Source: a virus
Taxonomy: Duplodnaviria; Heunggongvirae; Uroviricota; Caudoviricetes
Strand: one strand, 5' to 3'
Virus record (IMG/VR): IMGVR_UViG_3300031853_000008
Location: 1 to 64,000 of that record
DNA: 64,000 bases
The notes below the pieces were generated by a model. It worked only from the letters and a program-made list of their open reading frames with translations, made no database searches and had not been told where the DNA came from. Each line of letters opens with the position of its first letter. Within the stretch, counting starts at the first letter, position 1. The position numbers and the translations under genes were made by a program. Positions 4,248 to 63,376 of the stretch are shown in pieces.

Positions 4248-4338
4248 TAGGGATGCCCGGACTCGAACCGGGATCACACCTATCTTCAGACGACTAGTAG
4301 TGTTTCACGTCCATCTCTACCTGTTGAGCTACATCCCC
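4248..4338 (-). tRNA. tRNA-like gene, 91 nt; canonical acceptor stem (GGGGATG/CATCCCT), D arm and T arm (CCCGG-TTCGAGT-CCGGG), but the anticodon stem GGACG/CGTCT encloses a 15-nt loop; isotype undetermined
   Basis: Folded by hand from the reverse complement. Length is in the type II range. The loop contains CTACTAG. Confidence 0.4.
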
Positions 4339-4926: not shown

Positions 4927-4944
4927 ATCCTTTCCCTCTTTTAA

Positions 4945-5018
4945 TGCGTCTAGCGGGACTCGAACCCACGACCGATCAGTTAAAAGCCGACTACTCTAGC
5001 CATCTGAGTTACAGACGC
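4945..5018 (-). tRNA. tRNA-Lys(UUU)
   Basis: 74-nt cloverleaf: acceptor GCGTCTG/TAGACGC, D arm ACTC..GAGT, anticodon stem GTCGG/CTGAT with loop CTTTTAA (anticodon TTT, A37), T arm GTGGG-TTCGAGT-CCCGC. CCA not encoded. Confidence 0.75.
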
Positions 5019-5090
5019 ATCTAGAAAATAGGGCAGCAACACGGGTGCCGCCGCCCCGAAAAGACTTAGTCTTTTGTTCATGAAGGCTGA

Positions 5091-25816: not shown

Positions 25817-26043
25817 GTTTCATCATCCTTCATTGAATAGTCACTCCATTTTACGGAAGATGTATTTTCATTCCCCGCATCAGGAGTTGTTGTTTTCAAA
25901 ATACTGATAATCTCACCCTTCATATCTTCGCCACCGATAAAGTATGCCAGATTTAGAATTTCCCGCTCTCTTGCCGCCCTGTCGTTCTTCTGTGCGATTC
26001 CAGCAAGTTTAATAGCTATCTTCAGTTTCTTGAATTTTGTCAT
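25813..26043 (-). CDS. hypothetical protein (76 aa)
   Basis: ORF. Confidence 0.4.
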   Translation of the reverse strand: MTKFKKLKIAIKLAGIAQKNDRAAREREILNLAYFIGGEDMKGEIISILKTTTPDAGNENTSSVKWSDYSMKDDET

Positions 26044-26061
26044 GAGATTCTCCTTATATAG

Positions 26062-26133
26062 TCACCCGGTGGGGATTCGAACCCCAGTCTTGAGGGTTAG
26101 GGCCTCTCGTCTTGACCACTCGACTACCGGGCG
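26062..26133 (-). tRNA. amber suppressor tRNA, anticodon CUA (reads UAG); charged amino acid unknown
   Basis: 72-nt cloverleaf: acceptor CGCCCGG/CCGGGTG, U8A9, D arm GTCG..GAC, T arm TGGGG-TTCGAAT-CCCCA, discriminator A. Anticodon arm GAGG/CCTC with loop CCCTAAC puts CTA at positions 34-36. Position 33 is C rather than U. Confidence 0.6.
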
Positions 26134-26202
26134 CTCTGTCTTTCCAGAGTGTCAAGTTGATTTGTATTTCCAGTTACTGGTTACATATTTGCGTCACAAA
26201 AA

Positions 26203-26463
26203 TTAGAAACGAAGGAAGTCTGTCAGAAGGGCTGGAATAATGCTTAAACTGCTATATCCACCATAATCTGCTTCGTACTTTTCCTTCAGCTTCAAATACT
26301 CGCGTTCCGCATCTTGAACTCTGTCATATGCCTTACGGAGTTCTTCTGCTCGTTCCTTCTTCTTGCTCTTGATTGTGAGAGCATCGGCTTCAGCCACTTT
26401 CGCTTCGTCTTCTGTTCCGTAAAACTTCTGCGTTACATCGCTATAGTATCTCAATGGAATCAC
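26203..26463 (-). CDS. hypothetical protein (86 aa; non-ATG start)
   Basis: ORF with an AGGGG RBS and an ATT/alternative start. Lies between a conserved leader element and the suppressor tRNA. Confidence 0.35.
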   Translation of the reverse strand: MIPLRYYSDVTQKFYGTEDEAKVAEADALTIKSKKKERAEELRKAYDRVQDAEREYLKLKEKYEADYGGYSSLSIIPALLTDFLRF

Positions 26464-26480
26464 CCCTTTCTTTTAGATTT

Positions 26481-26545
26481 CAAGACCCGAAAATGGTTGC
26501 AGATTAACAGTCTGTTCATATTTGTGTTGCTGTTAGGGTCTTAAT
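26481..26545 (-). promoter_or_regulatory. conserved leader element copy L3 (AAGACCC-AACAGCAA..CAGACT..GCAACCATTT..GGGTCTTG)
   Basis: About 65 nt that aligns with L2 (28841..28908) and partly with L1 (58879..58974). Its ends are complementary (AAGACCC / GGGTCTT). Confidence 0.4.
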
Positions 26546-26639
26546 AATTTTTATTATTATTTACAAGGCGCTCATTACTAGATCGGTTACAAGTCGATTG
26601 TAAAGTTGTTTGCTGTATGCGCCTTAATTTCAAGACTCG

Positions 26640-26712
26640 GCTTTGACTTTGAGCTGGGGCCAGATTAGAACTGGCAATCTCTCCGGGGCCACCGAAGCGC
26701 TTTAACCTTTGA
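26640..26712 (-). ncRNA. tRNA-like fragment (D-arm-like GGCTCAAAGGTTAAAGC and T-arm-like CCAG-TTCTAAT-CTGG hairpins) just downstream of rsr
   Basis: GC-rich structured segment. No canonical acceptor pairing could be found. Confidence 0.25.
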
Positions 26713-26750
26713 GCCACCCGGCTAATCATTGCTGTACGGAGTCTTATAGC

Positions 26751-28274
26751 TTACACAATATCCTTTACGGCATCTTCTATTGGCTTATATCTATCTGTAT
26801 TCAACTCATTAAGAAGAGCTTCATACGGATCAATCTTTGCCGTCATAAACATCTTCAGCAGATTCACAGAGAACCCAGAACAGAGAACCATGCCGAGATC
26901 ATTCTCCTGCATCGGAATCGTCTTATCCATGTTAAGCGACAGATTCCAGAAAACAATCTTTGGCAGCTTATAGCCATGACTCTGATATTCGTCGCTGATT
27001 TCTTCGAATAGAGTCTTGTTATATCCAAAACTTGTCCAATGGCTTCTTCCATCCCACTGCATATCACTGCAAATCACAATCATCTTCGGCATATCGTCCT
27101 GCGTCATATGATTCTCGATTGCGGTGTTCAGAATCAGTTTCATTGTCTTATAGATGTCTGTATTGGAACATTCATCTTCTGCATAAGTCTTAGCAACTTT
27201 ATCTGCCAGGGTCTTACAATTGCGGAGATCGATAAACTTCGGATTGGCGGAAAATGTAATGAATCTCCCCCGCCAAGCCTTAGAGTTATGATCCGCCATG
27301 TAAATAGCGAGTGCTGTGGCAACATCAATAGGCCTGTAGCTTCCACAGTTAGATTCCATTGACCCGCTACCATCTCTGACGACAAGAGCATCGGAGAGCA
27401 TAATATTCTTCTGGCTCTTCCATAATTCTTCCAGTACTGGATCTTCTTTCACATTATCGCGCTCCCAGTAACAACGACCACCAATATACTGCTTGACAAT
27501 CTCATGCGGCTGAAGAGCCTTTGCGTTAATCTTTGTATCGCCTTTAACAAGAGAGTCAATATATTCCTGTCTTCTTGCTTGATCGTGACGTGCGAACGCA
27601 TCTTTGTAATTGAGATTTGCCTTGGACGGAACCTTTGCGTAATCAATATCGCTCCAGTTCCCGCAAGACATCTTCTGCTCCACTACATCAAGGTACGTTC
27701 TCAGCCCTGTAAGAAGTTTTCTGTACTGGCGGGGCTGAATCCCCCACTCATCCATCGTCTTTCTCGCAAGTCTTCTTGTGTTCTTTGACGAAGTGTTTTC
27801 TGATGGAAGCCATTTGCTCAAAAGGGATACAGACTTTCCTTCTTTTGCATTTCTCACATCTTCAAGAGCCTGGTTGAGCATGAGCCTTGCCGTATCTTTC
27901 CAGACTGGAGTATTCTCTAGTGTATAAAGGCTATCCCATCTGTTATATTCTGAGACGAACTTAATCAGCTTTTTCACAACGTCTGGCTTCTGATCCGCCA
28001 GCCACGCAAGACAAGCCCGGAAGACTTTACGCTCTCCCACCCCCTCACGGATATCTCCAACATAGAAGAGATACTTTACCGCAATAAGTGGGTTCTCGAA
28101 ATAAACCTTTGCAAATTCATCCTTGATATCACTCTCGTCCATACTCCTCATAGAAGAAAGCGCGAAGTTGAAATCAAGAAGGTTCTTTCCTGATGTTTTG
28201 TATGCAACGGCACCGTTCGTGGTAAGCGTTTTCTCGTTGTTAAGTTCTTTCTTCATTCCATCATAAAAATTCAT
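26751..28274 (-). CDS. rsr: Ro60/Rsr-like ribonucleoprotein (TROVE + von Willebrand A domains)
   Basis: N-terminal TTNGAVAYKTSGKNLLDFNF TROVE-like region. vWA MIDAS VVRDGSGSM. Start MNFYDG with AAAGGA RBS. Confidence 0.6.
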   Translation of the reverse strand: MNFYDGMKKELNNEKTLTTNGAVAYKTSGKNLLDFNFALSSMRSMDESDIKDEFAKVYFENPLIAVKYLFYVGDIREGVGERKVFRACLAWLADQKPDVVKKLIKFVSEYNRWDSLYTLENTPVWKDTARLMLNQALEDVRNAKEGKSVSLLSKWLPSENTSSKNTRRLARKTMDEWGIQPRQYRKLLTGLRTYLDVVEQKMSCGNWSDIDYAKVPSKANLNYKDAFARHDQARRQEYIDSLVKGDTKINAKALQPHEIVKQYIGGRCYWERDNVKEDPVLEELWKSQKNIMLSDALVVRDGSGSMESNCGSYRPIDVATALAIYMADHNSKAWRGRFITFSANPKFIDLRNCKTLADKVAKTYAEDECSNTDIYKTMKLILNTAIENHMTQDDMPKMIVICSDMQWDGRSHWTSFGYNKTLFEEISDEYQSHGYKLPKIVFWNLSLNMDKTIPMQENDLGMVLCSGFSVNLLKMFMTAKIDPYEALLNELNTDRYKPIEDAVKDIV

Positions 28275-28297
28275 AATCAGTATCCTTTCATTGTAAG

Positions 28298-28410
28298 GAG
28301 GGCAGTGTGGGTTCGAACCACAAACATCGCCTTTCAAGAGGAAAATGTTTTGCTGTTAGCACCTATACAAGATGCGTATTTTCGTGCTCTACCATTGAGC
28401 TACTGCCCTC
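28298..28410 (-). ncRNA. Y-RNA-like tRNA mimic
   Basis: Perfect acceptor stem with G-1 (gAGGGCAG/CTGCCCT), U8A9, D arm GCTC-AATGGTA-GAGC, T arm TGTGG-TTCGAAC-CCACA. In place of an anticodon arm there is about 63 nt of extra helices. Lies 23 nt upstream of rsr. Confidence 0.5.
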
Positions 28411-28505
28411 ATAGAAACAAGACCCTTAACCCATTGATTGCCGCTAGAAGGAGATCCATTTATCATTTTCATGTGATTTGCTGCGTGGGTCTTAATATGT
28501 TACTG

Positions 28506-28811
28506 TTATTTATTTAGTTTTTCTTCTTCTTTCTTTTTGATTTCCGCTTGCTCGTCCAACCAGTTCTGAAGCTTTCTGAATACGGAAATCTCTTTCTGTA
28601 AAGGAGTCTTACCGTTATCAATCCGTTTATCGGAATTTCTGGCAAGCTCATTTATTTTCTTGTACTGGTATCCCTTTCCATTCTCAATCCTAATTCTGAA
28701 ATGGGAGATTCTTTTTTTATCTCTCTCCTGCTTAATCGCCTTATTCTTTTCACGAGTTCCAGCCGCTTCGTACTTCTTGCACCAGTCTTTATTTCTTCCA
28801 ATCTTAGACAT
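28506..28811 (-). CDS. hypothetical basic protein (101 aa)
   Basis: Lys/Arg-rich ORF, first gene after leader L2. Confidence 0.45.
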   Translation of the reverse strand: MSKIGRNKDWCKKYEAAGTREKNKAIKQERDKKRISHFRIRIENGKGYQYKKINELARNSDKRIDNGKTPLQKEISVFRKLQNWLDEQAEIKKKEEEKLNK

Positions 28812-28840
28812 ACATAAGTCCTTTCTGTAATATCATAATC

Positions 28841-28908
28841 GCAAGACCCTAATTAAATGGTTGCGGATTTCAAGTCTGCTCATTATTGGTTTTGCTGTTC
28901 GGGTCTTT
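28841..28908 (-). promoter_or_regulatory. conserved leader element copy L2
   Basis: AAAGACCCGAACAGCAAAACCAATAATGAGCAGACTTGAAATCCGCAACCATTTAATTAGGGTCTTGC. A 16-mer (AGACCCGAACAGCAAA) is identical to L1. Confidence 0.4.
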
Positions 28909-28917
28909 CTATTGTTG

Positions 28918-28946
28918 ATATTACCACATTAATTTACGCATGTCAA
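28918..28946 (-). promoter_or_regulatory. sigma70-type promoter TTGACA-N17-TAATAT upstream of L2
   Basis: Sequence match. Confidence 0.35.
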
Positions 28947-51496: not shown

Positions 51497-53158
51497 ATGT
51501 TGTGTAATTCTTTATTTCTTACGTTTCTGAAGAACAATGGACTTAAAAATTATAAGGATATTTCTACCAGGGACGTGATATGTATTGATTTCGGGTTTGG
51601 GACGAGATCGTACGATGAAGAGTACTCTCATATCAAAAAAATGCTTCAAAGTGCCGAAGAATCTGGGAATGATGAAAAAATCACAAAAATGAAGGATTTA
51701 TTGGCAAAAACAATCAAAAATAAGTCGAAATTTAAGAAAATTTCGAAAGAAAACCTTAGAATTTTGATGTATGAAAACGGCATTGATGTGACCTATAAGG
51801 GGTTTGGGGATGACTCAGATGAAAAGATTCACTATAAGATGTTGGAGAGAAATGCTTCCCATGCCAAAGTTGGGACTGTAATCTTCATCAATTCTGAACT
51901 TTATGATAAAGCCTATAACTGGTTAAGTATGGGAATCAAGTTGCCGAAGAAAAAGGCTAAAATCGTTGAGATGTCGGCATATATGCCATTGACAACTTCG
52001 ACGATAGTCGGCACCGTTCACATTCCTGTACAGGATATTTTAATCTTAAAGGATTATGATTCGTTCTATAAAACAGTTGCGGATGTGATTAAACCTAAAA
52101 AAGGCGATAACGGCAAGATGATGTGCTACGTGTCAAGAGAGGATACGGAAGTAAAGAATACTCTGTGGGACGGGATGGCACTTATTGAGTCCTCGATTCT
52201 GCCCGGATACTGTAATGGAATGGCGTTGCTGAGAAACCATTTTTTCAAGGCTTGTGCGTTTAAGACTAATATCCAGCTGTTCTTCCATGATTACTGCGAC
52301 AAACACGGAATTGACTATGAAACTTATCAGATTACCGATATGTTTGGATACAGGCATTATTTAAAAGATATCAAAATGATAACGACAGATAATGCTATTA
52401 AGTGGAAGAAATTTATCTCTCTTATGGGGAACAGCCCTACTGAGGCGTATGGCTACTGGTGCGAAAAAGTTAGAGCGGATGGGGAAGAATGGGGAATCGT
52501 AAAGACAGACCACCCAAGCAAACTTAGTTATATAGGGAACTATAACAGAATGAGTTACCAGATGCTCAATACTCTCCCGACCACTTATGAAGATGTAGGC
52601 AAAATAGCTTCTACAAGCATTAAATATGTAGAAGATATGAAAAACAACAATGATATTTACGAGAAGTTTCTGCGAGAGAATGCCACGGCAGTCAATCATT
52701 ATGAGATGTTGGCTGACCTATACAAACAGAATAAAGAGTTCGCAAGAAGCGTTATGTGGAAACGAGACAAAGCGGATATCATCCGGCATTATGTCAACAA
52801 TCTTCGCAAAGGGAAGATATTCGTTAGAGGCGATAATCTGACGCTTTGTGGAAATCCATATGCTCTACTGCTTTACAGCATGGGGGAAGCTCCTGAGAAT
52901 GACAAAACGCTGTTACATGAGGATGGAACTATACAGTGTTACACGAAACAGTTTGAAGATGGTGAGTATTTGTGTGCTTTTAGATCCCCACAGAATTCAG
53001 CAAACAATATAGCATATTTTCATAACCACTACTCTCCCGAAATGGAGAAGTATTTTGATTTTAGTAAAAATATAATTGCTGTTAATTGTATTGGGACTGA
53101 TATTCAGCCTCGGATGAACGGCTCAACAATCGGGGCCAGTTGTGCGGAAACGCACTTC
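51497..53158 (+). CDS. large protein of unknown function, exon 1 (554 aa)
   Basis: ORF ends at TAA, the first codon of a group I intron (the same arrangement as in dnaE). Confidence 0.5.
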
Positions 53159-53436
53159 TAAAAATATTCGGTGAAAATTGGAAAGCTGACAATGCCAGCC
53201 AATCAATTACCAAGCCAGTGAATATCAGAAAGTAGCTGGAAGGTTTAGAGACTAGGGGTTGAGGAGATACCCAATAACACCCCCACGAGTGCCGAATACC
53301 TTAACACATAATGGTGAAGGTAATGAGATAGTCCGATACTCTTAGGAAACTGAGAGCTGCCGTGGATAAAGAGCCACGGACATAACAATATGGCGATTTT
53401 GACAGCGATTTTGTTTTTGCAACTAACCAACAAGAA
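53159..53436 (+). other. group I intron A (3' boundary approximate)
   Basis: R element GGTTTAGAGACTA at 53243-53255, S element GAGATAGTCCGA at 53325-53336, P9-like hairpin CCGTGG..CCACGG. Confidence 0.55.
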
Positions 53437-53700
53437 ATGGTAAAGGGTTCAAAGATTGCATATAGAGATTTCCCAACGGTAGTGAATGCTATCCCTGAAA
53501 GTGGGTTGACATATGACAATACTCCAGATTCGTATGCACTTATGGATAATCGCTTTGCCAAGAGCCAACGTGCGATAGGGGAATCATCGAATTTGGCGAT
53601 GTTGGCAGTAACATATTATTTAACAAACATTGCGAATAATATAAACAATGAACAAACCAAACAATTGTATGATATTTCAGTAATTCTAGCAGTATTGGCT
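53437..53700 (+). CDS. large protein of unknown function, exon 2 (about 88 aa; 5' boundary lies between 53386 and 53440)
   Basis: ORF bracketed by two group I introns. Ends at TAA, which begins intron B. Confidence 0.4.
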
Positions 53701-54061
53701 TAATTAACTGGGCCGGTCGCATAGAAATATGCCCCATAAAATATCCTGTGAATTTCTGGAAAGCTAAGAGTAAATGACTATGAATAAAGAACCTATGAAG
53801 ATGCCATTAGTAAACCGATATGAAAAATATAAATTGTAGTTATTTACTTATGCTAATCAGAAGCCAAGCCACTAAATCCTGTAGAAGTAAGTGGAAGGTT
53901 CAGAGACTAATCGGTGAGAAGGGGATCAATATCCGAACACGAGTGCAGGACACCTAAAAGATATTCTCAAGGTGATGATATAGTCCGATCTATAGGGAAA
54001 CCTATTGAAGCAACAGATAAATAGCTGTTGATGTAACGACAAGCAGTGCAGCATAGATAGT
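53701..54061 (+). other. group I intron B (3' boundary approximate)
   Basis: Q-like AATCCTGTAG, exact R element GGTTCAGAGACTAA at 53898-53910, S element GATATAGTCCGA at 53976-53988. Confidence 0.55.
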
Positions 54062-58874: not shown

Positions 58875-58878
58875 CATT

Positions 58879-58974
58879 AAGACCCGAACAGCAAATTTAC
58901 AGGATAAATTATGATGACATTGAACGGATATGAACTTGGTTCGTCCCCGTTCTTTCCCTTTTTTGGGTCTTGCG
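58879..58974 (+). promoter_or_regulatory. conserved leader element copy L1 upstream of the late operon
   Basis: TTAAGACCCGAACAGCAAA ... TTTTTTGGGTCTTGCG. The termini match L2 and L3 and are mutually complementary. Confidence 0.4.
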
Positions 58975-58997
58975 CCATGATTAAGGAGGGAAGCTAT

Positions 58998-60052
58998 ATG
59001 GCTTTTTTGAAAAAAGTCCTGCCATAGCAGGAAATGAAAAGGCTTACCCTCAAGCCCCTAAGAGAACAATATACTGCTTTGGGGTAGGCTTATAACAAAA
59101 TTATGAATTATGAACTTCCTTATTGTGTCAAATGTGGGACATTTGGAAGTGCTACTCTCTTCTATCAAGATAGCAGATTTGCGAATGGGTATTTCCCTAT
59201 TTGCAAAAAATGTATTATGAAAATGGTATAGAACAGATAGAAGGATGATGATGAACCACACGAAACGAAGGAATCCGTTGCTAAAGTATTGAAAATGATG
59301 GATCTTCCGTTCTTGGAAGACCTTTATGATTCTTGTGTAAAGGCTATTGAGGACGGAACTGAAAAGCGAGGGTCTAAATCTTCGTTTATTAATTATGTGT
59401 CCGCTATCCGTTCTCTCCCACAGTATCATCGTTTAACGTGGAAAGATTCTGATTATATTTCCCAAGAGAAGGAAATTGAGAACGACGCTGATAATGAGGA
59501 TATTCTTGAAAAAGCGAGAGAACATTTTGGAACAACTTATACTAATCAAGATTTGAAATTCCTTTAGACTCAATATGAAGACTGGACTGCCAGATATGCC
59601 TGTGAAAGTAAAGCACAGTAGATTTTGTTCCAGAGGGTATGCTTTATCCAATTAGCACTGGACAAGGCTCAAAAATCTGGGAAAGAAACGAAAGATCTTG
59701 ATAAACAGCTTCAGGATGTGTTGACATCGCTTCAGATTAAACCTAATCAGAGTAACTCTAATGCTCTTACGGAAGCAAAGACGTTTAGCCAGCTTATTGA
59801 GAAGTGGGAAGCTTAGAAACCTCTCCCTGAAATATAGGATGATTTTAAGGATGTTGATCATGTTGGGAGATATATTGATGTGTTCTTTAAAGGACATCTA
59901 TCCAAAATGATGGGGCTTAAGAATGCGTTTTCTTCTATGTATGATAAATTCATGAAAAAATATACTGTTAAGAAGCCGGAATATGATGAGGATACCGACT
60001 CTGAAGAATTGTTTGATAAAATATTTGGCAATCCTGTGGAGAATAGGTCATG
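58998..60052 (+). CDS. late protein with N-terminal zinc ribbon (candidate small terminase subunit); 8 in-frame TAG codons
   Basis: ATG with TTAAGGAGGG RBS. A single frame runs 58998 to 60052. Every interruption is TAG and the final stop is TGA. Confidence 0.45.
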
Positions 60053-60115
60053 AGTGACGCTAAGAAATCTGTTAAATAGATAGAGAAAACCAAATAGCGT
60101 AAAATAATGTAGACG

Positions 60116-61813
60116 GTGGCTTGGAGAGCAAGCTACTATCGTGAAAATCCTCATCGATTCGTTTCTGAAGTATTATTCCCAGATGGAACTTTTAAGTTGA
60201 AATTGTTTCAAAAGATTCTTCTTTGGGCAATGATGCACTACAACTTTATTATGTACTTGGCGGCGCGCGGCCAGGGGAAAACGATGATAACTGCGTTGTT
60301 TTGTGTCGTGAGATGTATCTTATATCCGGGGACAAAGATAATTGTAGTAAGCGGTACGTTGAAACAAGCGAATGAATTGCTGTTAAAGATACAAGATGAA
60401 TTTATGCCGAAATCACCATTCCTATGTAATGAAATATAGTCTTGTAAAATTGGGCAGAATGACGCATCAATTTATTTTCGAGGAAATTCATGGATTAAAA
60501 CTCGCACAAGCACTTAGAACTCTCGTTCCGCAAGAGCAAATATTCTTATAGCGGATGAGTTTCGCATGATAGATTAGAAGATATTGAACACAGTTCTTCG
60601 AAAGTTTCTGACAAGCCCTCGTGAACCTGGATATTTGAATAACCCAGAATATACTCATTTAAAGGAACGCAATAAGGAAATTTATATGAGTTCTGCGTGG
60701 TTTAAGTCATCTTGGGCATATGAAAAGGCTATTGGATATACTAAGAATTTTTTCGATGATACAAAGAAATATTTTATCTGCGGGCTTCCATATCAGTTAT
60801 CTATTATGGAGGGCTTGCTTATGAAAGAACAAGTGCAGGATGAGATGAGCTAGCCGGATTGGAATGATTTATTGCAGTCGATGTAGATGGAATGCACCTG
60901 GATAGGTGATGTTGGAGATAATTTATTTCATTTTGATGATTTCAATAATAGACGGGTATTGAAGAGTTCTTTTCTTCCATTGAAATATTATAATGATAAT
61001 AGAAAAGTGCCATAGCCTCATTCAAAAGGGAAAAGGGTATTATCTCTTGATGTAGCTTTAATGAAATCATCAAAGTCTAAAAAAAATGATGCCTCAGCAT
61101 TATTCATTAACGATCTTACACCATCTACTAATACGAGTTATCATTCAAATATCGTTTATGCTGATACATTCGAGGGGTTAACAACTGACTAGCTTGGCTT
61201 AATTGTGATGAGATATTTTTATAAATATAAATGTACTGATTTAGTTATAGATACCAACGGTATCGGTTTAGGTGTCTATGACTTTTTATGTCGTGATCAA
61301 TATGACCCATCGACTGGGGAAACCTATCAAGCTATGACTTGTGCTAATGATCCAGATATGGCTGAGAGATGTCGTGTATAGGGGGCTAACAAGGTTATTT
61401 GGAGTGTAAAAGCAACCGCTTCATTTAACAATGATATTACTATTTTGCTCCGTAATGCTATATTAAATGGACGGATTAGCTTTCTTATATCTTAGGATGA
61501 TGCGGATGAGCCACTCAAAGATAAGCTTAAAGGATATGCAAAGCTGACCCCAACGGAACAAGCATTGTTAAAGAAACCTTACGCTCAGACAACTATGACA
61601 GAGTATGAACTCATAAAACTCAACCACTAGGTAAAGAATGGCAATATTAAAGTTTATTAGAGTTCTGGAATGCGCAAGGATCGCTACAGTTCATTATCGT
61701 ATAATTATTGGTGTGCGACTCAGCTTGAACTTAAGCTACGACCTAAAGAGTCACACGACAAACTTATCAGTTACTTTCCGATAAGGAAAGCAAGAGTTTA
61801 TAAATCATTTTAA
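60116..61813 (+). CDS. terL: terminase large subunit; 11 in-frame TAG codons
   Basis: GTG start. Walker A AARGQGKT, Walker B ILIADEF, nuclease-domain motif VIDTNGIGLGVYD, C-terminal KDRYSSL. One frame throughout, with interrupting stops only TAG (60437, 60515, 60575, 60851, 60884, 61013, 61184, 61379, 61493, 61628, 61658). Terminates at TAA. Confidence 0.75.
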
Positions 61814-61825
61814 GGAGGTGCATGA

Positions 61826-63376
61826 ATGCCACAAAATAGTGATAAGGTGTCAACTGCACCTACTAAGAAACAGCCTACTTCTGCGGAACTTCGCAAATGG
61901 TATGCGAATTATTCAAAGAAACAATAGAATTTTGATTCTATGAAAAATGCTTTGAAACGGCTTACTGATATTACGAAAAGTAGAAAAGAAAGAACTATTA
62001 ATACATTCTCAAAAGAGGATCTCAGAACTTATCTGAGAAATATAAGTTCCAGTGAAAAGCAGTTAAGAAATCTTTCGAGATATCTGTACTACCGTTCTCA
62101 TAGTTATTATAGAATCATTAACTATTATGCCAATATGTTTGACCTAAAAGCAAGGTCGGTTATTCCTACATATGATTTCACAAAAAATAAACAGGATGCG
62201 AAGAAGGTCACAAAACAGTTCTATACGACTTTGACTTATCTAGATCAAATGAACCTTCAGTATGAGTTCCTTAAAATATATCTCACTTGTTATAGGTAGG
62301 ATGTATTCTATGGTTGCCTGTACTGGGATGATACCGACTTCTTTATTCTCCCGTTGGACCCGGATTTTTGTAAAATTTCTGGCGTTTATGGGACAGGAGA
62401 CTTTTCATTCGCTTTCGACTTCTCCTATTTCAGAAATAGACAGGACGTTCTCGAATACTGGGGTGAGCCATTCCAATCTATGTATAACACATATGAGAAT
62501 GATACCACCAACAATAGGTGGCAGGACTTCCCGGAAGAATACTCTGTTTGCTTGAAAGCAAGGGCATAGGATTGGCAGACCGTAGTGCCCCCGTTCTCAG
62601 GGCTTTTTAATGAGATTATCAATCTTGAGGATCTGAAAGATATTCAGGCGGTGGCAGATGAGTCGCAGATTTACAAGCTTCTCTGGTTCGAACTTAAAAC
62701 CATCACAGGGTCGAAAGATGTTAATGATTGGGCGGTTGATCCAGACCTTGCTTTGGATTATTACGATAAACTTCAGAATGAGATTCCTGAGTGGGCTGAT
62801 GTTGCGATGGTTCCTGGGGAACTCAAGTCTATCGAGTTCAATCAAGACCAGGCGGATGATACAAACAAGGTATAGAAAGCTACTGAAAGTGTATTCAATA
62901 CTTCCGGCGGAGCGCAGATTCTTAATGCTGCTTCTATCTCTGGGACAACAGCTTTTACTGCCGCGATTGCGTCTGATACTGAATTTGCCGTTTCTCTCCT
63001 GTTGCCACAGACTTAGGCTTGGGTGAATCGTATGCTTTCGTATAAGATGAATAACCCCGCAAAGGTGAAATTCTTTGAGATAAGCATCTATACGAGAGAT
63101 AAGTTAAGAGATGCTCTTCTCAAGTCGAGTCAGTTCGGGCTTCCAAATAAACTTGCCATTAATACCCTGTTTGGATATTCCGAGAAAGATACAATGGCGA
63201 TGAATTTCCTTGAAGAGAATTGCTTGCAAGTCAGCACTAAATTTACTCCACTCCAGTCTTCCTATACAAGGAGTGCGGATGTTGACACAGATTCTATTAC
63301 AGGGGGAAGACCATCTAGCACATAGATAACAGATGACGGTGAAGCAAGCAAAGATAAGAGGGATAATGCGAAATGA
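61826..63376 (+). CDS. portal/connector-like late protein; 6 in-frame TAG codons
   Basis: AAGGAGG RBS. Four listed ORFs (61940, 62354, 62585, 63023) plus flanks are all in frame 2, joined by TAG only. Terminates at TGA. Confidence 0.5.

What the first reader, a model, noticed from the sequence alone, without database searches (positions are those of the whole stretch)
26751..28410. Rsr/Ro60 ortholog with an adjacent tRNA-mimic (YrlA-like) RNA
The 507-aa protein combines an N-terminal TROVE-like region with a C-terminal vWA domain carrying a DxSGS MIDAS motif, the Ro60/Rsr architecture. Immediately upstream (23 nt) is a 113-nt element with a perfect tRNA acceptor stem (including G-1 opposite a C discriminator), D arm and T arm. 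The anticodon arm is replaced by about 63 nt of extra helices. This matches Y-RNA-like RNAs that use a tRNA-like module. A second tRNA-like fragment follows rsr at 26640-26712. The suppressor tRNA lies 600 bp further on. So the phage groups an Ro RNP module with its translational recoding machinery. Ro/Y RNA systems are rare in phages outside mycobacteriophages.
Basis: partly seen in the sequence, partly recalled or inferred. Interest (0 to 1): 0.8.

Follow-up and report, generated by a model that had tools for sequence, protein, structure and literature searches.

The report
Phage Ro-like protein with new partner RNAs
The phage gene encodes a distant structural relative of the Ro60 RNA-binding ring.

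Summary

The RNA is not YrlA. It gives no Rfam Y-RNA match, lacks the GNCGAA motif and has a different topology. Its insert carries a module that recurs in the locus: a helix (UAAGRCnnn/nnnGYCUUG) followed on its 5' strand by single-stranded ACAGCAA. Four free-standing units, one unit enclosing a degenerate tRNA, and the tRNA-embedded copy flank the gene.

A covariance model of the free units found 153 copies in 80 gene-selected phage loci and 113 in 80 bacterial/MAG loci. All lie on the gene's strand, mostly within a few hundred nt of the gene, and the helix covaries strongly. In mycobacteriophage Snenia the units sit beside the gene, not in the tRNA cluster 20 kb away. Phage T5's tRNA region has none.

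Best reading: a divergent Ro60-type RNP with a new class of Y-like RNAs whose variable parts imitate tRNAs or anticodon arms. Binding, expression and function are untested.

The parts
28918..28946 (-). sigma-70-like promoter candidate (TTGACA-17-TAATAT with an upstream TG) ending 8 nt before unit U1
   Evidence: Consensus scan gives 10 of 12 matches. The number of such sites in the region is not above shuffles, so this is only a candidate.
28840..28910 (-). free-standing unit U1: AAGACCC / GGGUCUU helix, ACAGCAA (28898-28892), and an interior anticodon-arm-like hairpin with loop CUUGAAA
   Evidence: Model R1 scores 36.9 bits, E 5e-6. The minimum-free-energy fold contains the helix.
28506..28811 (-). 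101-aa lysine-rich ORF between U1 and U2; not a conserved part of the system
   Evidence: ORF list. It has no PHROG hit and no tblastn hit in 164 related loci.
28416..28496 (-). free-standing unit U2 (motif variant GCAGCAA; AAGACCC / GGGUCUU helix)
   Evidence: R1 scores 24.6 bits, E 0.003. The fold contains the helix.
28298..28410 (-). the 113-nt tRNA-like RNA of the finding. It has an acceptor stem with G-1:C73, a D arm and a T arm. Inside the anticodon stem, after nt 28, sits an insert: hairpin 28375-28359 (GCAUCU-UGUAU-AGGUGC) followed by ACAGCAA 28356-28350. A helix GAAAAU/AUUUUC (28383-28378 / 28346-28341) closes the insert. A residual anticodon-arm-like hairpin CCU-CUUGAA-AGG lies at 28341-28330 and has only a 6-nt loop.
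   Evidence: Rfam tRNA 42 bits. Fold z-score -3.5. Coordinates. About 90 similarly built tRNA-likes occur in related loci.
26751..28274 (-). Ro60-like protein gene (DUF2828 + DUF7788/vWA with DGSGS MIDAS), 507 aa
26631..26746 (-). unit U3: helix AAGACUC / GAGUCUU and ACAGCAA (26735-26729) enclosing a whole degenerate tRNA-like (26723-26651, 'Ala-GGC', non-canonical anticodon loop and T loop)
   Evidence: ARAGORN. Rfam tRNA 38.3 bits in the local scan. The fold contains the outer helix. R1 does not detect it because of the long interior.
26562..26628 (-). free-standing unit U4 (AAGGCGC / GCGCCUU helix; interior hairpin with loop CUUGUAA)
   Evidence: R1 scores 42.9 bits, E 2e-7; fold.
26479..26545 (-). 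free-standing unit U5 (AAGACCC / GGGUCUU helix; interior hairpin CAGA-CUGUUAA-UCUG)
   Evidence: R1 scores 48.1 bits, E 1e-8; fold.
26061..26133 (-). amber-suppressor tRNA (anticodon CUA), same strand, about 350 nt beyond U5; membership in the system is uncertain
   Evidence: ARAGORN and Rfam, 56.9 bits. TAG is almost never a stop in the window and is frequent in-frame in the + strand genes at 58.9-63.4 kb.
58876..58894 (+). isolated half-site AUUAAGACCCGAACAGCAA, which shares its 5' helix strand and motif (AAGACCCGAACAGCAA) with U1, just upstream of the first TAG-rich gene; it has no convincing 3' partner strand
   Evidence: R1 scores 19 bits, E 0.06, with the 3' side unpaired.

Best explanation
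The locus encodes a divergent Ro60-type ribonucleoprotein system. The protein is a predicted Ro60-like ring (helical-repeat N-terminal part plus a vWA domain with a MIDAS site). It is probably co-transcribed with six small RNAs that share one candidate protein-binding module.

The module is a 7-9 bp helix with conserved ends (5'-UAAGRCnnn ... nnnGYCUUG-3'), followed on its 5' strand, after 0-3 nt, by single-stranded ACAGCAA. In U1, U2, U4 and U5 the helix joins the RNA's two ends and closes a 40-55 nt interior that usually holds an anticodon-arm look-alike. In U3 the helix encloses a whole degenerate tRNA. In the 113-nt element the same module is closed into a hairpin and inserted in the anticodon stem of a tRNA scaffold.

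By analogy with Ro60 and Y RNAs, I propose that the protein binds the helix/ACAGCAA module. The variable tRNA-like or anticodon-arm-like part would be the working end, presenting a tRNA mimic to host factors that recognise tRNAs: nucleases of anti-phage defence, or processing and repair enzymes.

Shown here: the predicted fold, the RNA helix (by covariation), and the tight same-strand linkage of RNA and gene across phages and bacteria.
Inferred: physical binding, existence as stable RNAs, and the biological role.

For: Motif bias. ACAGCAA occurs 367 times on the gene strand and 43 times on the other strand in 80 gene-selected IMG/VR loci. It piles up in the 500 nt before the start codon and just after the stop.

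Helix, tested without selecting for pairing. Of 148 sites matching [AT][ATG]G-NNNN-NN-ACAGCAA, 56% have a perfectly complementary NNNN next to a downstream C[TC][TAC]G. When the partners are permuted the figure is 5% (maximum 11.5% in 1000 permutations).

Helix, on model-aligned hits. 92% of cells pair, and 251 cells carry a change on both sides against 61 +/- 9 in shuffles. Sliding the partner columns drops pairing to 26-50%.

Model R1. It gives 153 hits at E<=0.01 in 59 of 80 phage loci, all on the gene strand. In 22 loci a unit ends less than 60 nt before the start codon. In 80 bacterial/MAG loci found through the gene it gives 113 hits, all on the gene strand, in 61 loci by my count of the table. 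Of those 80 loci, 54 have no tRNA gene nearby, including Veillonella atypica KON and Treponema ruminis RU1.

Cultured phages outside the seed also score: Bacillus Tsamsa, Mycobacterium Snenia, Enterococcus EFDG1, and weakly a Felixounavirus.

Whole Snenia genome. The only two R1 hits lie in the 382-nt gap right after the gene, and none lie in its tRNA cluster 20 kb away.

Negative control. The T5 tRNA region, which has no homolog of the gene, gives 0 hits.

Embedded copies. 76% of 96 tRNA-embedded sites have a hairpin of at least 5 bp ending at the motif, against 28% in shuffles, and its 5' strand commonly ends UCUUG or UCUAG like the free units.

Anticodon-arm-like hairpins occur in 77 of 206 free units, against 12.5 expected (maximum 21).

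Literature. Bas63 gp130 is described as structurally Ro60-like, lies directly upstream of that phage's tRNA genes, and counters the Ppl defence system. Its authors guessed that some of the neighbouring tRNAs are Y RNAs (PMC11482910). Another phage Ro60 binds RNAs encoded upstream of its own gene (PMC12135203).
Against: There is no binding, expression or end-mapping data for any of these RNAs.

gp130 alone, expressed from a plasmid or moved into T7, rescued plating on Ppl. At least that activity therefore does not need the phage's own RNAs.

I did not retrieve the Bas63 sequence. Its membership in this protein family rests on its description, on my own knowledge that Bas63 is a Felixounavirus, and on the conserved gene-plus-tRNA-array layout in 245 Felixounavirus-type records.

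The AF2 model is of moderate quality (pLDDT 79), and TM-scores to Ro60 are only about 0.5.

Many units lie just before the start codon, which equally fits a cis-acting operator.

In a motif-first scan, only 29 of 80 fetched stretches also held the gene. The stretches were short and uneven, and about 50 chance matches to that pattern are expected, so the scan is uninformative rather than contrary.

R1 hits on the Felixounavirus are weak (E 0.05-0.13), and 21 of 80 phage loci have no R1 hit.
Confidence: 0.6

Rival explanations
1. The helix+ACAGCAA units are cis-acting signals rather than stable partner RNAs. They could be processing or insulator elements of long transcripts that carry tRNAs and the gene, or a translational operator through which the protein controls its own mRNA. 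The tRNA-like element would then be a precursor or a by-product.
For: In 22 of 80 phage loci a unit ends less than 60 nt before the start codon, with the ribosome-binding site directly after the CUUG. The units lie in same-strand arrays between tRNAs. A conserved G follows the 3' strand, which could mark a cleavage site.
Against: There are up to eight units per locus, and many lie downstream of the gene or kilobases away. The module is also grafted inside about 90 tRNA scaffolds, and the interiors imitate anticodon arms. Neither feature is needed for an operator or a cleavage signal. The units occur beside the gene where no tRNA is nearby. This rival overlaps the main explanation, because an RNP can also autoregulate.
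Confidence: 0.2
2. One reading: a canonical Rsr (TROVE) ortholog with a YrlA-type Y RNA, in which the tRNA-like domain is the effector module and a GNCGAA-type stem binds Ro.
For: Ro60-like fold. The tRNA-like RNA is adjacent on the same strand. Homologs carry the GenBank annotation 'Ro-like RNA binding protein'.
Against: No TROVE Pfam match appears, and no sequence match to any Ro60 in the PDB appears even with a profile. No Rfam Y RNA or YrlA hit appears at E<=10. The GNCGAAN0-1G motif is absent. The ends lie in the acceptor stem, whereas YrlA has a loop-closed acceptor and its ends in the Ro-binding stem (PMC4201824).
Confidence: 0.07
3. The 113-nt element and its about 90 relatives are real tRNA genes interrupted by a new kind of small intron (hairpin+ACAGCAA) that is cut out and the halves rejoined. 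The free-standing units would be related elements, and the Ro-like protein would assist splicing or folding.
For: In many relatives, removing the insert restores a normal 5-bp anticodon stem and a 7-nt loop with U33 and a purine at 37 (for example L019 3593, anticodon GUU). In one group of loci only class II tRNAs (Ser, Leu) are uninterrupted, while every class I tRNA-like carries the insert.
Against: No endonuclease or ligase is conserved in the neighbourhood. In the window element the restored loop would have 6 nt. In other relatives the whole anticodon loop is replaced. The free units and the copies in tRNA-free bacterial loci have nothing to splice. The insert is far too small to be a self-splicing intron, and Rfam finds no ribozyme.
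Confidence: 0.08
4. Chance, or a decayed tRNA pseudogene next to an unrelated vWA protein.
For: ARAGORN does not call the element as a tRNA.
Against: All 266 model hits lie on the gene strand. Covariation is strong. The pairing recurs in phages of Proteobacteria, Firmicutes and Actinobacteria and in bacterial isolates.
Confidence: 0.02

Closest known systems
Ro60/Rsr with Y RNAs (bacterial YrlA/YrlB, D. radiodurans Yrn1; Chen et al. 2014, PMC4201824)
   Same: A ring-plus-vWA protein is encoded beside several same-strand small RNAs. The RNAs have a terminal stem with a short conserved purine-rich motif on its 5' side, and a second, variable module that imitates tRNA.
   Different: The protein is not detectable as TROVE by sequence (it is DUF2828/DUF7788). 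The motif is ACAGCAA after a UAAGRC/GYCUUG helix, not GNCGAAN0-1G. The tRNA mimicry differs: complete tRNA scaffolds with free acceptor ends, or bare anticodon-arm look-alikes, rather than a loop-closed acceptor with D and T arms. There are more copies per locus, and no RtcB/RtcA neighbours were seen.
Thermus phage phiLo Ro60 with Yrl1/Yrl2 (PDB 9KOP, 9L5Y; PMC12135203)
   Different: Its PDB entry names it a TROVE-domain protein, and a profile of this family does not match its sequence. Its RNAs were picked by a CGAA motif and a stem-bulge-stem shape, and they contain no tRNA-like module.
Bas63 gp130 (PhageMaP preprint, PMC11482910)
   Same: It is described as structurally Ro60-like and lies directly upstream of the phage's tRNA array. 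Felixounavirus homologs of the window protein have exactly that layout, and units with ACAGCAA lie in that array in phage Mushroom.
   Different: That work reports a phenotype (it counters the Ppl defence) but no RNA partner. The authors only guessed that some tRNAs are Y RNAs. The protein worked without the phage's RNAs. I did not verify the Bas63 sequence itself.
tRNA (Rfam RF00005), tRNA pseudogenes and tRNA-like stable RNAs of phage T5
   Same: The 113-nt element passes the tRNA model's gathering score and has canonical acceptor, D and T arms. T5 also carries tRNA-like stable RNAs of unknown role in its tRNA region.
   Different: The anticodon stem is interrupted by a conserved foreign module, and the residual loop has 6 nt. 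T5 has neither the module nor the gene.

Membership tests
Ro60 / TROVE protein family | Sequence match to the TROVE domain (Pfam PF05731) | tested here: not met
   hmmscan against Pfam-A at E<=1 returns DUF2828, DUF7788 and weak VWA_2 only. phmmer and profile searches of PDB sequences find no Ro60.
Ro60 / TROVE protein family | Fold: helical-repeat ring followed by a vWA domain | tested here: met
Ro60 / TROVE protein family | MIDAS motif DxSxS in the vWA domain | tested here: met
   D301, S303 and S305 (DGSGS) are invariant in 26 homologs.
Ro60 / TROVE protein family | Binds Y RNAs or misfolded RNAs | not testable with these tools
   Only genomic linkage to conserved RNAs was shown.
YrlA / bacterial Y RNA | Match to the Rfam Y RNA / YrlA covariance models | tested here: not met
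   cmscan of 25900-28700 at E<=10 lists only tRNA and two chance hits. Nothing appears at gathering score in the window or in 112 kb of related loci. Whether Rfam 15 holds a dedicated YrlA model is from my memory, not checked.
YrlA / bacterial Y RNA | GNCGAAN0-1G motif near the 5' end (PMC4201824) | tested here: not met
   By my own reading of the sequences, the element and the units lack it. The conserved motif is ACAGCAA.
YrlA / bacterial Y RNA | 5' and 3' ends pair in the protein-binding stem, and the tRNA-like domain has a loop-closed acceptor | tested here: not met
   This row concerns the 113-nt element. Its ends are the acceptor stem, and the candidate binding module is an internal hairpin. 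The free units U1, U2, U4 and U5, and U3, do have their ends in the conserved stem, so they share this one feature.
YrlA / bacterial Y RNA | Encoded within a few kb of the Ro gene on the same strand | tested here: met
   All 153 + 113 model hits lie on the gene strand, mostly within 500 nt of the gene.
tRNA (RF00005) | Cloverleaf that passes the curated score, with a 7-nt anticodon loop | tested here: inconclusive
   It scores 42 bits against a gathering score of 29, with intact acceptor, D and T arms. The anticodon stem carries a net insert of about 40 nt, the residual loop has 6 nt, and ARAGORN does not call it.
Helix+ACAGCAA RNA family (defined here, model R1) | 7-9 bp covarying helix UAAGRCnnn/nnnGYCUUG with ACAGCAA 0-3 nt after the 5' strand | tested here: met
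   Four window units score 24.6-48.1 bits. U3 and the embedded copy fit on inspection. Covariation is shown.

The most novel reading that the evidence does not exclude
A widespread class of Ro-type RNPs in phages and some bacteria, not described in what I could search, whose RNAs use a helix+ACAGCAA handle to hold the protein. They display tRNA or anticodon-arm decoys (loops mimicking Lys-UUU, Asn-GUU, Ser-UGA and Ser-GCU) that trap or misdirect tRNA-targeting immune nucleases or other tRNA-recognising host factors. This would make it an RNA-based anti-defence device that travels with phage tRNA arrays and suppressor tRNAs.
Probability: 0.25. Interest if true: 0.85.

Novelty: new variant of a known kind. 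Interest (0 to 1): 0.7.

Why it matters
Ro60 and Y RNAs are an old puzzle: they are conserved from bacteria to humans and are a lupus autoantigen, yet their function is only partly understood. This analysis gives a second, sequence-divergent branch of that system a concrete and easily recognised RNA partner. It also supplies a covariance model and more than 260 examples.

The examples include tractable hosts: Felixounaviruses of E. coli and Salmonella, mycobacteriophage cluster L in M. smegmatis, Enterococcus and Bacillus phages, and Veillonella and Treponema isolates.

This makes a published guess testable (PhageMaP: 'some tRNA genes are possibly Y RNAs'). It explains many 'tRNA-OTHER', pseudo-tRNA and unannotated gaps beside these genes. 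It also suggests that part of what is counted as phage tRNA cargo is not for translation at all.

If the tRNA and anticodon-arm mimicry serves counter-defence, it would be a new mode of phage-host conflict.

Tried and rejected
Sequence routes to Ro60 gave nothing: Pfam TROVE, phmmer against PDB sequences, and a profile against PDB sequences. Only the fold comparison shows the relation.

The Rfam search for Y RNA, YrlA or any other known family in the locus and in related loci gave nothing.

Promoter idea. I considered that AAGAC...ACAGCAA could be a sigma-54 or phage-polymerase promoter. I rejected it for three reasons. The GG/GC spacing is 2 nt short of the sigma-54 consensus. The 5' box covaries with a downstream partner. 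The motif is conserved in phages of unrelated hosts that use host polymerase.

Conserved protein partners. The small flanking ORFs (101, 86, 76 and 67 aa) have no relatives in 164 related loci and no PHROG hit.

Motif-first scan of IMG/VR. The stretches returned were uneven in length and the pattern is short enough for roughly 50 chance hits, so it could not measure linkage cleanly. I replaced it with three other tests: the whole Snenia genome, phage T5 and the gene-first bacterial set.

I tried to fetch Bas63 by guessing its accession. MZ501111 turned out to be Bas51, and I did not pursue it.

Literature searches for DUF2828, ACAGCAA, and Ro60/TROVE with phage found no description of these RNAs. 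The library does not hold most subscription journals, so prior description cannot be excluded.
Full report
WHAT IS THERE

On the minus strand, 26751-28274 encodes a 507-aa protein. Pfam places its N-terminal half in DUF2828 (E 7e-36) and its C-terminal half in DUF7788 (E 4.5e-43). The generic vWA model reaches only E 0.17, and TROVE does not appear. PHROGs files it as phrog_850, 'RNA-binding protein' (E 5e-120). DGSGS (D301, S303, S305) is invariant among 26 homologs.

By sequence, though, this is a separate family and not an Rsr ortholog.

THE 113-NT ELEMENT

The stretch 28410-28298 (-) ends 23 nt before the ATG. It scores 42 bits on the Rfam tRNA model (gathering score 29). The acceptor stem, D arm and T arm are perfect, and 53 nt stand in place of the inner 13 nt of the anticodon arm. 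G28410 pairs with C28298, a G-1:C73 pair. ARAGORN does not call the element. It folds better than all 200 shuffles (z -3.5).

No Y RNA or YrlA family matches, even at E<=10. The published YrlA hallmarks are a GNCGAAN0-1G motif, RNA ends in the Ro-binding stem, and a loop-closed acceptor (PMC4201824). None of them is present in this element.

The downstream tRNA-like is real. It lies at 26651-26723. The amber-suppressor tRNA is at 26061-26133.

Inside the insert lies a hairpin (GCAUCU-UGUAU-AGGUGC) followed by UA-ACAGCAA. The same two-part signature occurs outside tRNAs in the locus as UUAAG-nnnn, then nACAGCAA, then 40-55 nt, then nnnn-CUUG. The variable nnnn are complementary in each copy: AAGACCC/GGGUCUU, AAGGCGC/GCGCCUU and AAGACUC/GAGUCUU.

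Around the gene there are four free-standing units:
- U1 at 28910-28840
- U2 at 28496-28416
- U4 at 26628-26562
- U5 at 26545-26479

There is also one unit whose helix encloses the whole degenerate tRNA (U3, 26746-26631), and the copy embedded in the 113-nt tRNA-like. A sigma-70-like promoter candidate ends 8 nt before U1.

IS IT MORE THAN CHANCE?

Eighty IMG/VR loci were chosen only for encoding a homolog (36-55% identity; more than 565 such stretches exist). In them ACAGCAA occurs 367 times on the gene strand and 43 times on the other, in 79 of 80 loci. It is concentrated in the 500 nt before the start codon and just after the stop.

A test that does not select for pairing gave a clear result. 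Of 148 sites matching [AT][ATG]G-NNNN-NN-ACAGCAA, 56% have a perfectly Watson-Crick complementary NNNN beside a downstream C[TC][TAC]G. After permuting partners the figure is 5%, with a maximum of 11.5% in 1000 permutations.

I built a covariance model (R1) from 55 units, with 8 base pairs.
- In the window it finds U5, U4, U1 and U2 (48, 43, 37 and 25 bits). It finds nothing else strong in 64 kb.
- In the 80 phage loci it finds 153 hits at E<=0.01, every one on the gene strand, in 59 loci. In 22 loci a unit ends less than 60 nt before the start codon.
- On the model-aligned hits, 92% of cells pair. There are 251 cells changed on both sides, against 61 +/- 9 in shuffles. Sliding the partner columns drops pairing to 26-50%.

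These counts lean towards the model, and that is why I also ran the permutation test.

IS THE RNA TIED TO THE GENE OR TO tRNA ARRAYS?

The gene usually sits in same-strand tRNA arrays: 55 of 80 loci have tRNAs within 4 kb, all on the gene strand. The alternative therefore had to be tested. Three results tie the RNA to the gene.

(i) Eighty loci from bacterial genomes and MAGs were retrieved through the gene. R1 finds 113 hits in them, all on the gene strand, in 61 loci by my count. Most lie within about 350 nt upstream or about 400 nt downstream of the gene. Of these 80 loci, 54 have no tRNA gene within 3 kb. They include Veillonella atypica KON, V. caviae DSM 20738 and the Treponema ruminis RU1 chromosome.

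(ii) In the complete genome of mycobacteriophage Snenia, the only two R1 hits (E<=1) lie in the 382-nt unannotated gap right after the 'RNA-binding protein' gene. A third, T-arm-bearing copy lies between them. The phage's main tRNA cluster, 20 kb away, has none.

(iii) Phage T5's first 50 kb holds its tRNA region (25 annotated tRNA genes) but no homolog of the gene. It gives no R1 hit at E<=1, and no ACAGCAA occurs in the tRNA region.

Cultured phages not used for the model also score: Bacillus Tsamsa (E 4e-7), Snenia (8e-6), Enterococcus EFDG1 (1e-4), and weakly the Felixounavirus Mushroom. In Mushroom the helix variant is CAGAAGACC.../...GGUCUGG.

ANATOMY ACROSS THE FAMILY

The invariant parts are the G-C pair of AAG/CUU, the G that follows the 3' strand, and ACAGCAA. 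The inner four helix pairs vary freely but stay complementary.

The interior of free units holds a hairpin with a 7-nt loop in 157 of 206 cases (96 expected). In 77 cases the loop has the anticodon-loop signature: pyrimidine-U, then three bases, then a purine. Only 12.5 such cases are expected, with a maximum of 21. These hairpins start a median of 11 nt after ACAGCAA. The commonest 'anticodons' are UUU, UGA, GUU and GCU.

About 90 tRNA scaffolds in the related loci carry the module as a hairpin whose outer end is closed by a loop. Of these, 76% have a hairpin of at least 5 bp ending at the motif, against 28% in shuffles. The 5' strand commonly ends UCUUG or UCUAG, as in the free units. Rfam's tRNA model scores about 30 such 110-145 nt genes at 39-58 bits in 12 loci, and no Rfam family covers the free units.

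In many of them the insert sits between nt 28 and 29 of the anticodon stem, with an intact anticodon arm after it (for example GUU nine times and GCA seven times). In others the whole anticodon loop is replaced.

The window's element is of the first kind but keeps only a 6-nt loop. An extra arm at that position would face the large-subunit contacts of A- and P-site tRNA. This is my own knowledge of ribosome structure and was not tested. I therefore doubt these RNAs decode as they stand.

MECHANISM

The best-supported reading is a Ro60-type RNP. The protein would bind the helix/ACAGCAA handle, and the variable module (a tRNA scaffold or an anticodon-arm look-alike) would be the effector part. 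This is how Y RNAs are organised: a terminal stem with a conserved 5'-side motif, plus a tRNA-like module (PMC4201824).

- phiLo Ro60 binds two RNAs encoded upstream of its gene and forms complexes with host PNPase (PMC12135203).
- Bas63 gp130 is structurally Ro60-like and lies directly upstream of the phage's tRNA genes. It counters the Ppl defence, and it does so when moved into T7 (PMC11482910).

That transfer result also means the protein can act without the phage's own RNAs, which is a real caveat. I infer, but did not verify, that gp130 belongs to this family. The inference rests on the gene-plus-tRNA-array layout being conserved in 245 Felixounavirus-type records.

Shown: the predicted fold, the RNA structure, and the linkage.
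Inferred: binding, RNA stability and the role.

The decoy idea (tRNA or anticodon-arm mimics aimed at tRNA-targeting defence nucleases) is a hypothesis that fits the anatomy. No data here support it directly.

RIVALS

(a) The units are cis-acting processing signals or an autoregulatory operator. Their frequent position in the 5' leader makes this plausible. It does not explain the copies inside tRNA scaffolds or the anticodon-arm mimicry.

(b) A literal Rsr + YrlA reading. Its defining RNA features were tested and not met.

(c) A new small tRNA intron. The clean restoration of anticodon arms in many relatives suggests this, as do the loci where only class II tRNAs are uninterrupted. There is no conserved nuclease or ligase, however, and the free units have nothing to splice.

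(d) Chance or a pseudogene. The comparative data exclude this.

NOVELTY AND VERDICT

That phages carry Ro-like proteins next to tRNAs is known. Homologs are annotated 'Ro-like RNA binding protein' or 'RNA-binding protein', and the structural likeness has been published.

I found no description of the helix+ACAGCAA RNAs in Rfam 15 or in the searchable literature. That library is incomplete, so a prior description cannot be excluded.

I rate this a new variant of a known kind: a divergent Ro60-type system with its own class of Y-like RNAs. It is widespread, with 703 phage records carrying the gene and more than 4,200 homologs in the protein collection.

Noticed in passing
window 58908-63376 (+); 26061-26133 (-): Amber recoding. 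TAG ends only 1 of 54 open frames of at least 150 codons. Three long + strand frames (58908-60053, 60020-61813, 61826-63376) contain 8, 15 and 6 in-frame TAG codons. The tRNA-CUA lies in the same transcription direction as the Ro-like module. Suppressor-type anticodons also turn up next to homologs elsewhere: a tRNA-CUA just after the gene in L055 and an embedded unit with a CUCUAAA loop in L006.
   Followed up: partly
window 58876-58894 (+): An isolated half-site, AUUAAGACCCGAACAGCAA, shares its 5' helix strand and motif (AAGACCCGAACAGCAA) with unit U1. It sits about 14 nt before the first TAG-rich gene and has no proper 3' partner strand (R1 19 bits). It could be a protein-binding site on a late mRNA, or it could pair in trans with the GGGUCUUG strands of U1, U2 or U5. 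Neither was tested.
   Followed up: partly
window 53114-53356 and 53691-54007 (+): Two group I introns (Rfam 76 and 91 bits) lie close together, presumably interrupting one gene.
   Followed up: no
window 4248-4338 (-): Another non-standard tRNA-like (Rfam tRNA 37 bits; ARAGORN gives 'tRNA-???') has a 37-nt stretch in place of the anticodon arm but no ACAGCAA module. A normal tRNA-Lys(UUU) lies at 4944-5019.
   Followed up: partly
L010, L012, L014, L022, L025, L030, L033-L035, L038 (about 1.5 kb upstream of the gene): In this group of phage contigs, ARAGORN finds only class II tRNAs (Ser-GCU, Leu-UAA) near the gene. Three to five class I tRNA-like genes per locus all carry the hairpin+ACAGCAA insert. 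It is unexplained whether they are spliced tRNAs or dedicated mimics.
   Followed up: partly
L293 14313-15251 and 18030-19328 (Mycobacterium phage Snenia): The same phage that carries the Ro-like gene and its RNAs also encodes a polynucleotide kinase and an RNA ligase, a tRNA-repair pair, plus NAD-salvage enzymes. I did not check co-occurrence across phages.
   Followed up: no
L211 30284-33949 (phage T5): T5's tRNA region is annotated with eight 'stable RNAs with unknown functions', some of them tRNA-like. They lack the ACAGCAA module, and T5 lacks the gene in the 50 kb examined. They may be an independent case of tRNA-like non-coding RNAs in phage tRNA arrays.
   Followed up: partly
L205 6971-7714 and 9138-9332 (= window about 29.0-31.3 kb, -): Cytosine DNA-methylase (PF00145) matches are split between two ORFs, with four small ORFs between them. 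I did not examine whether this is a disrupted gene, two genes, or an intervening element.
   Followed up: no
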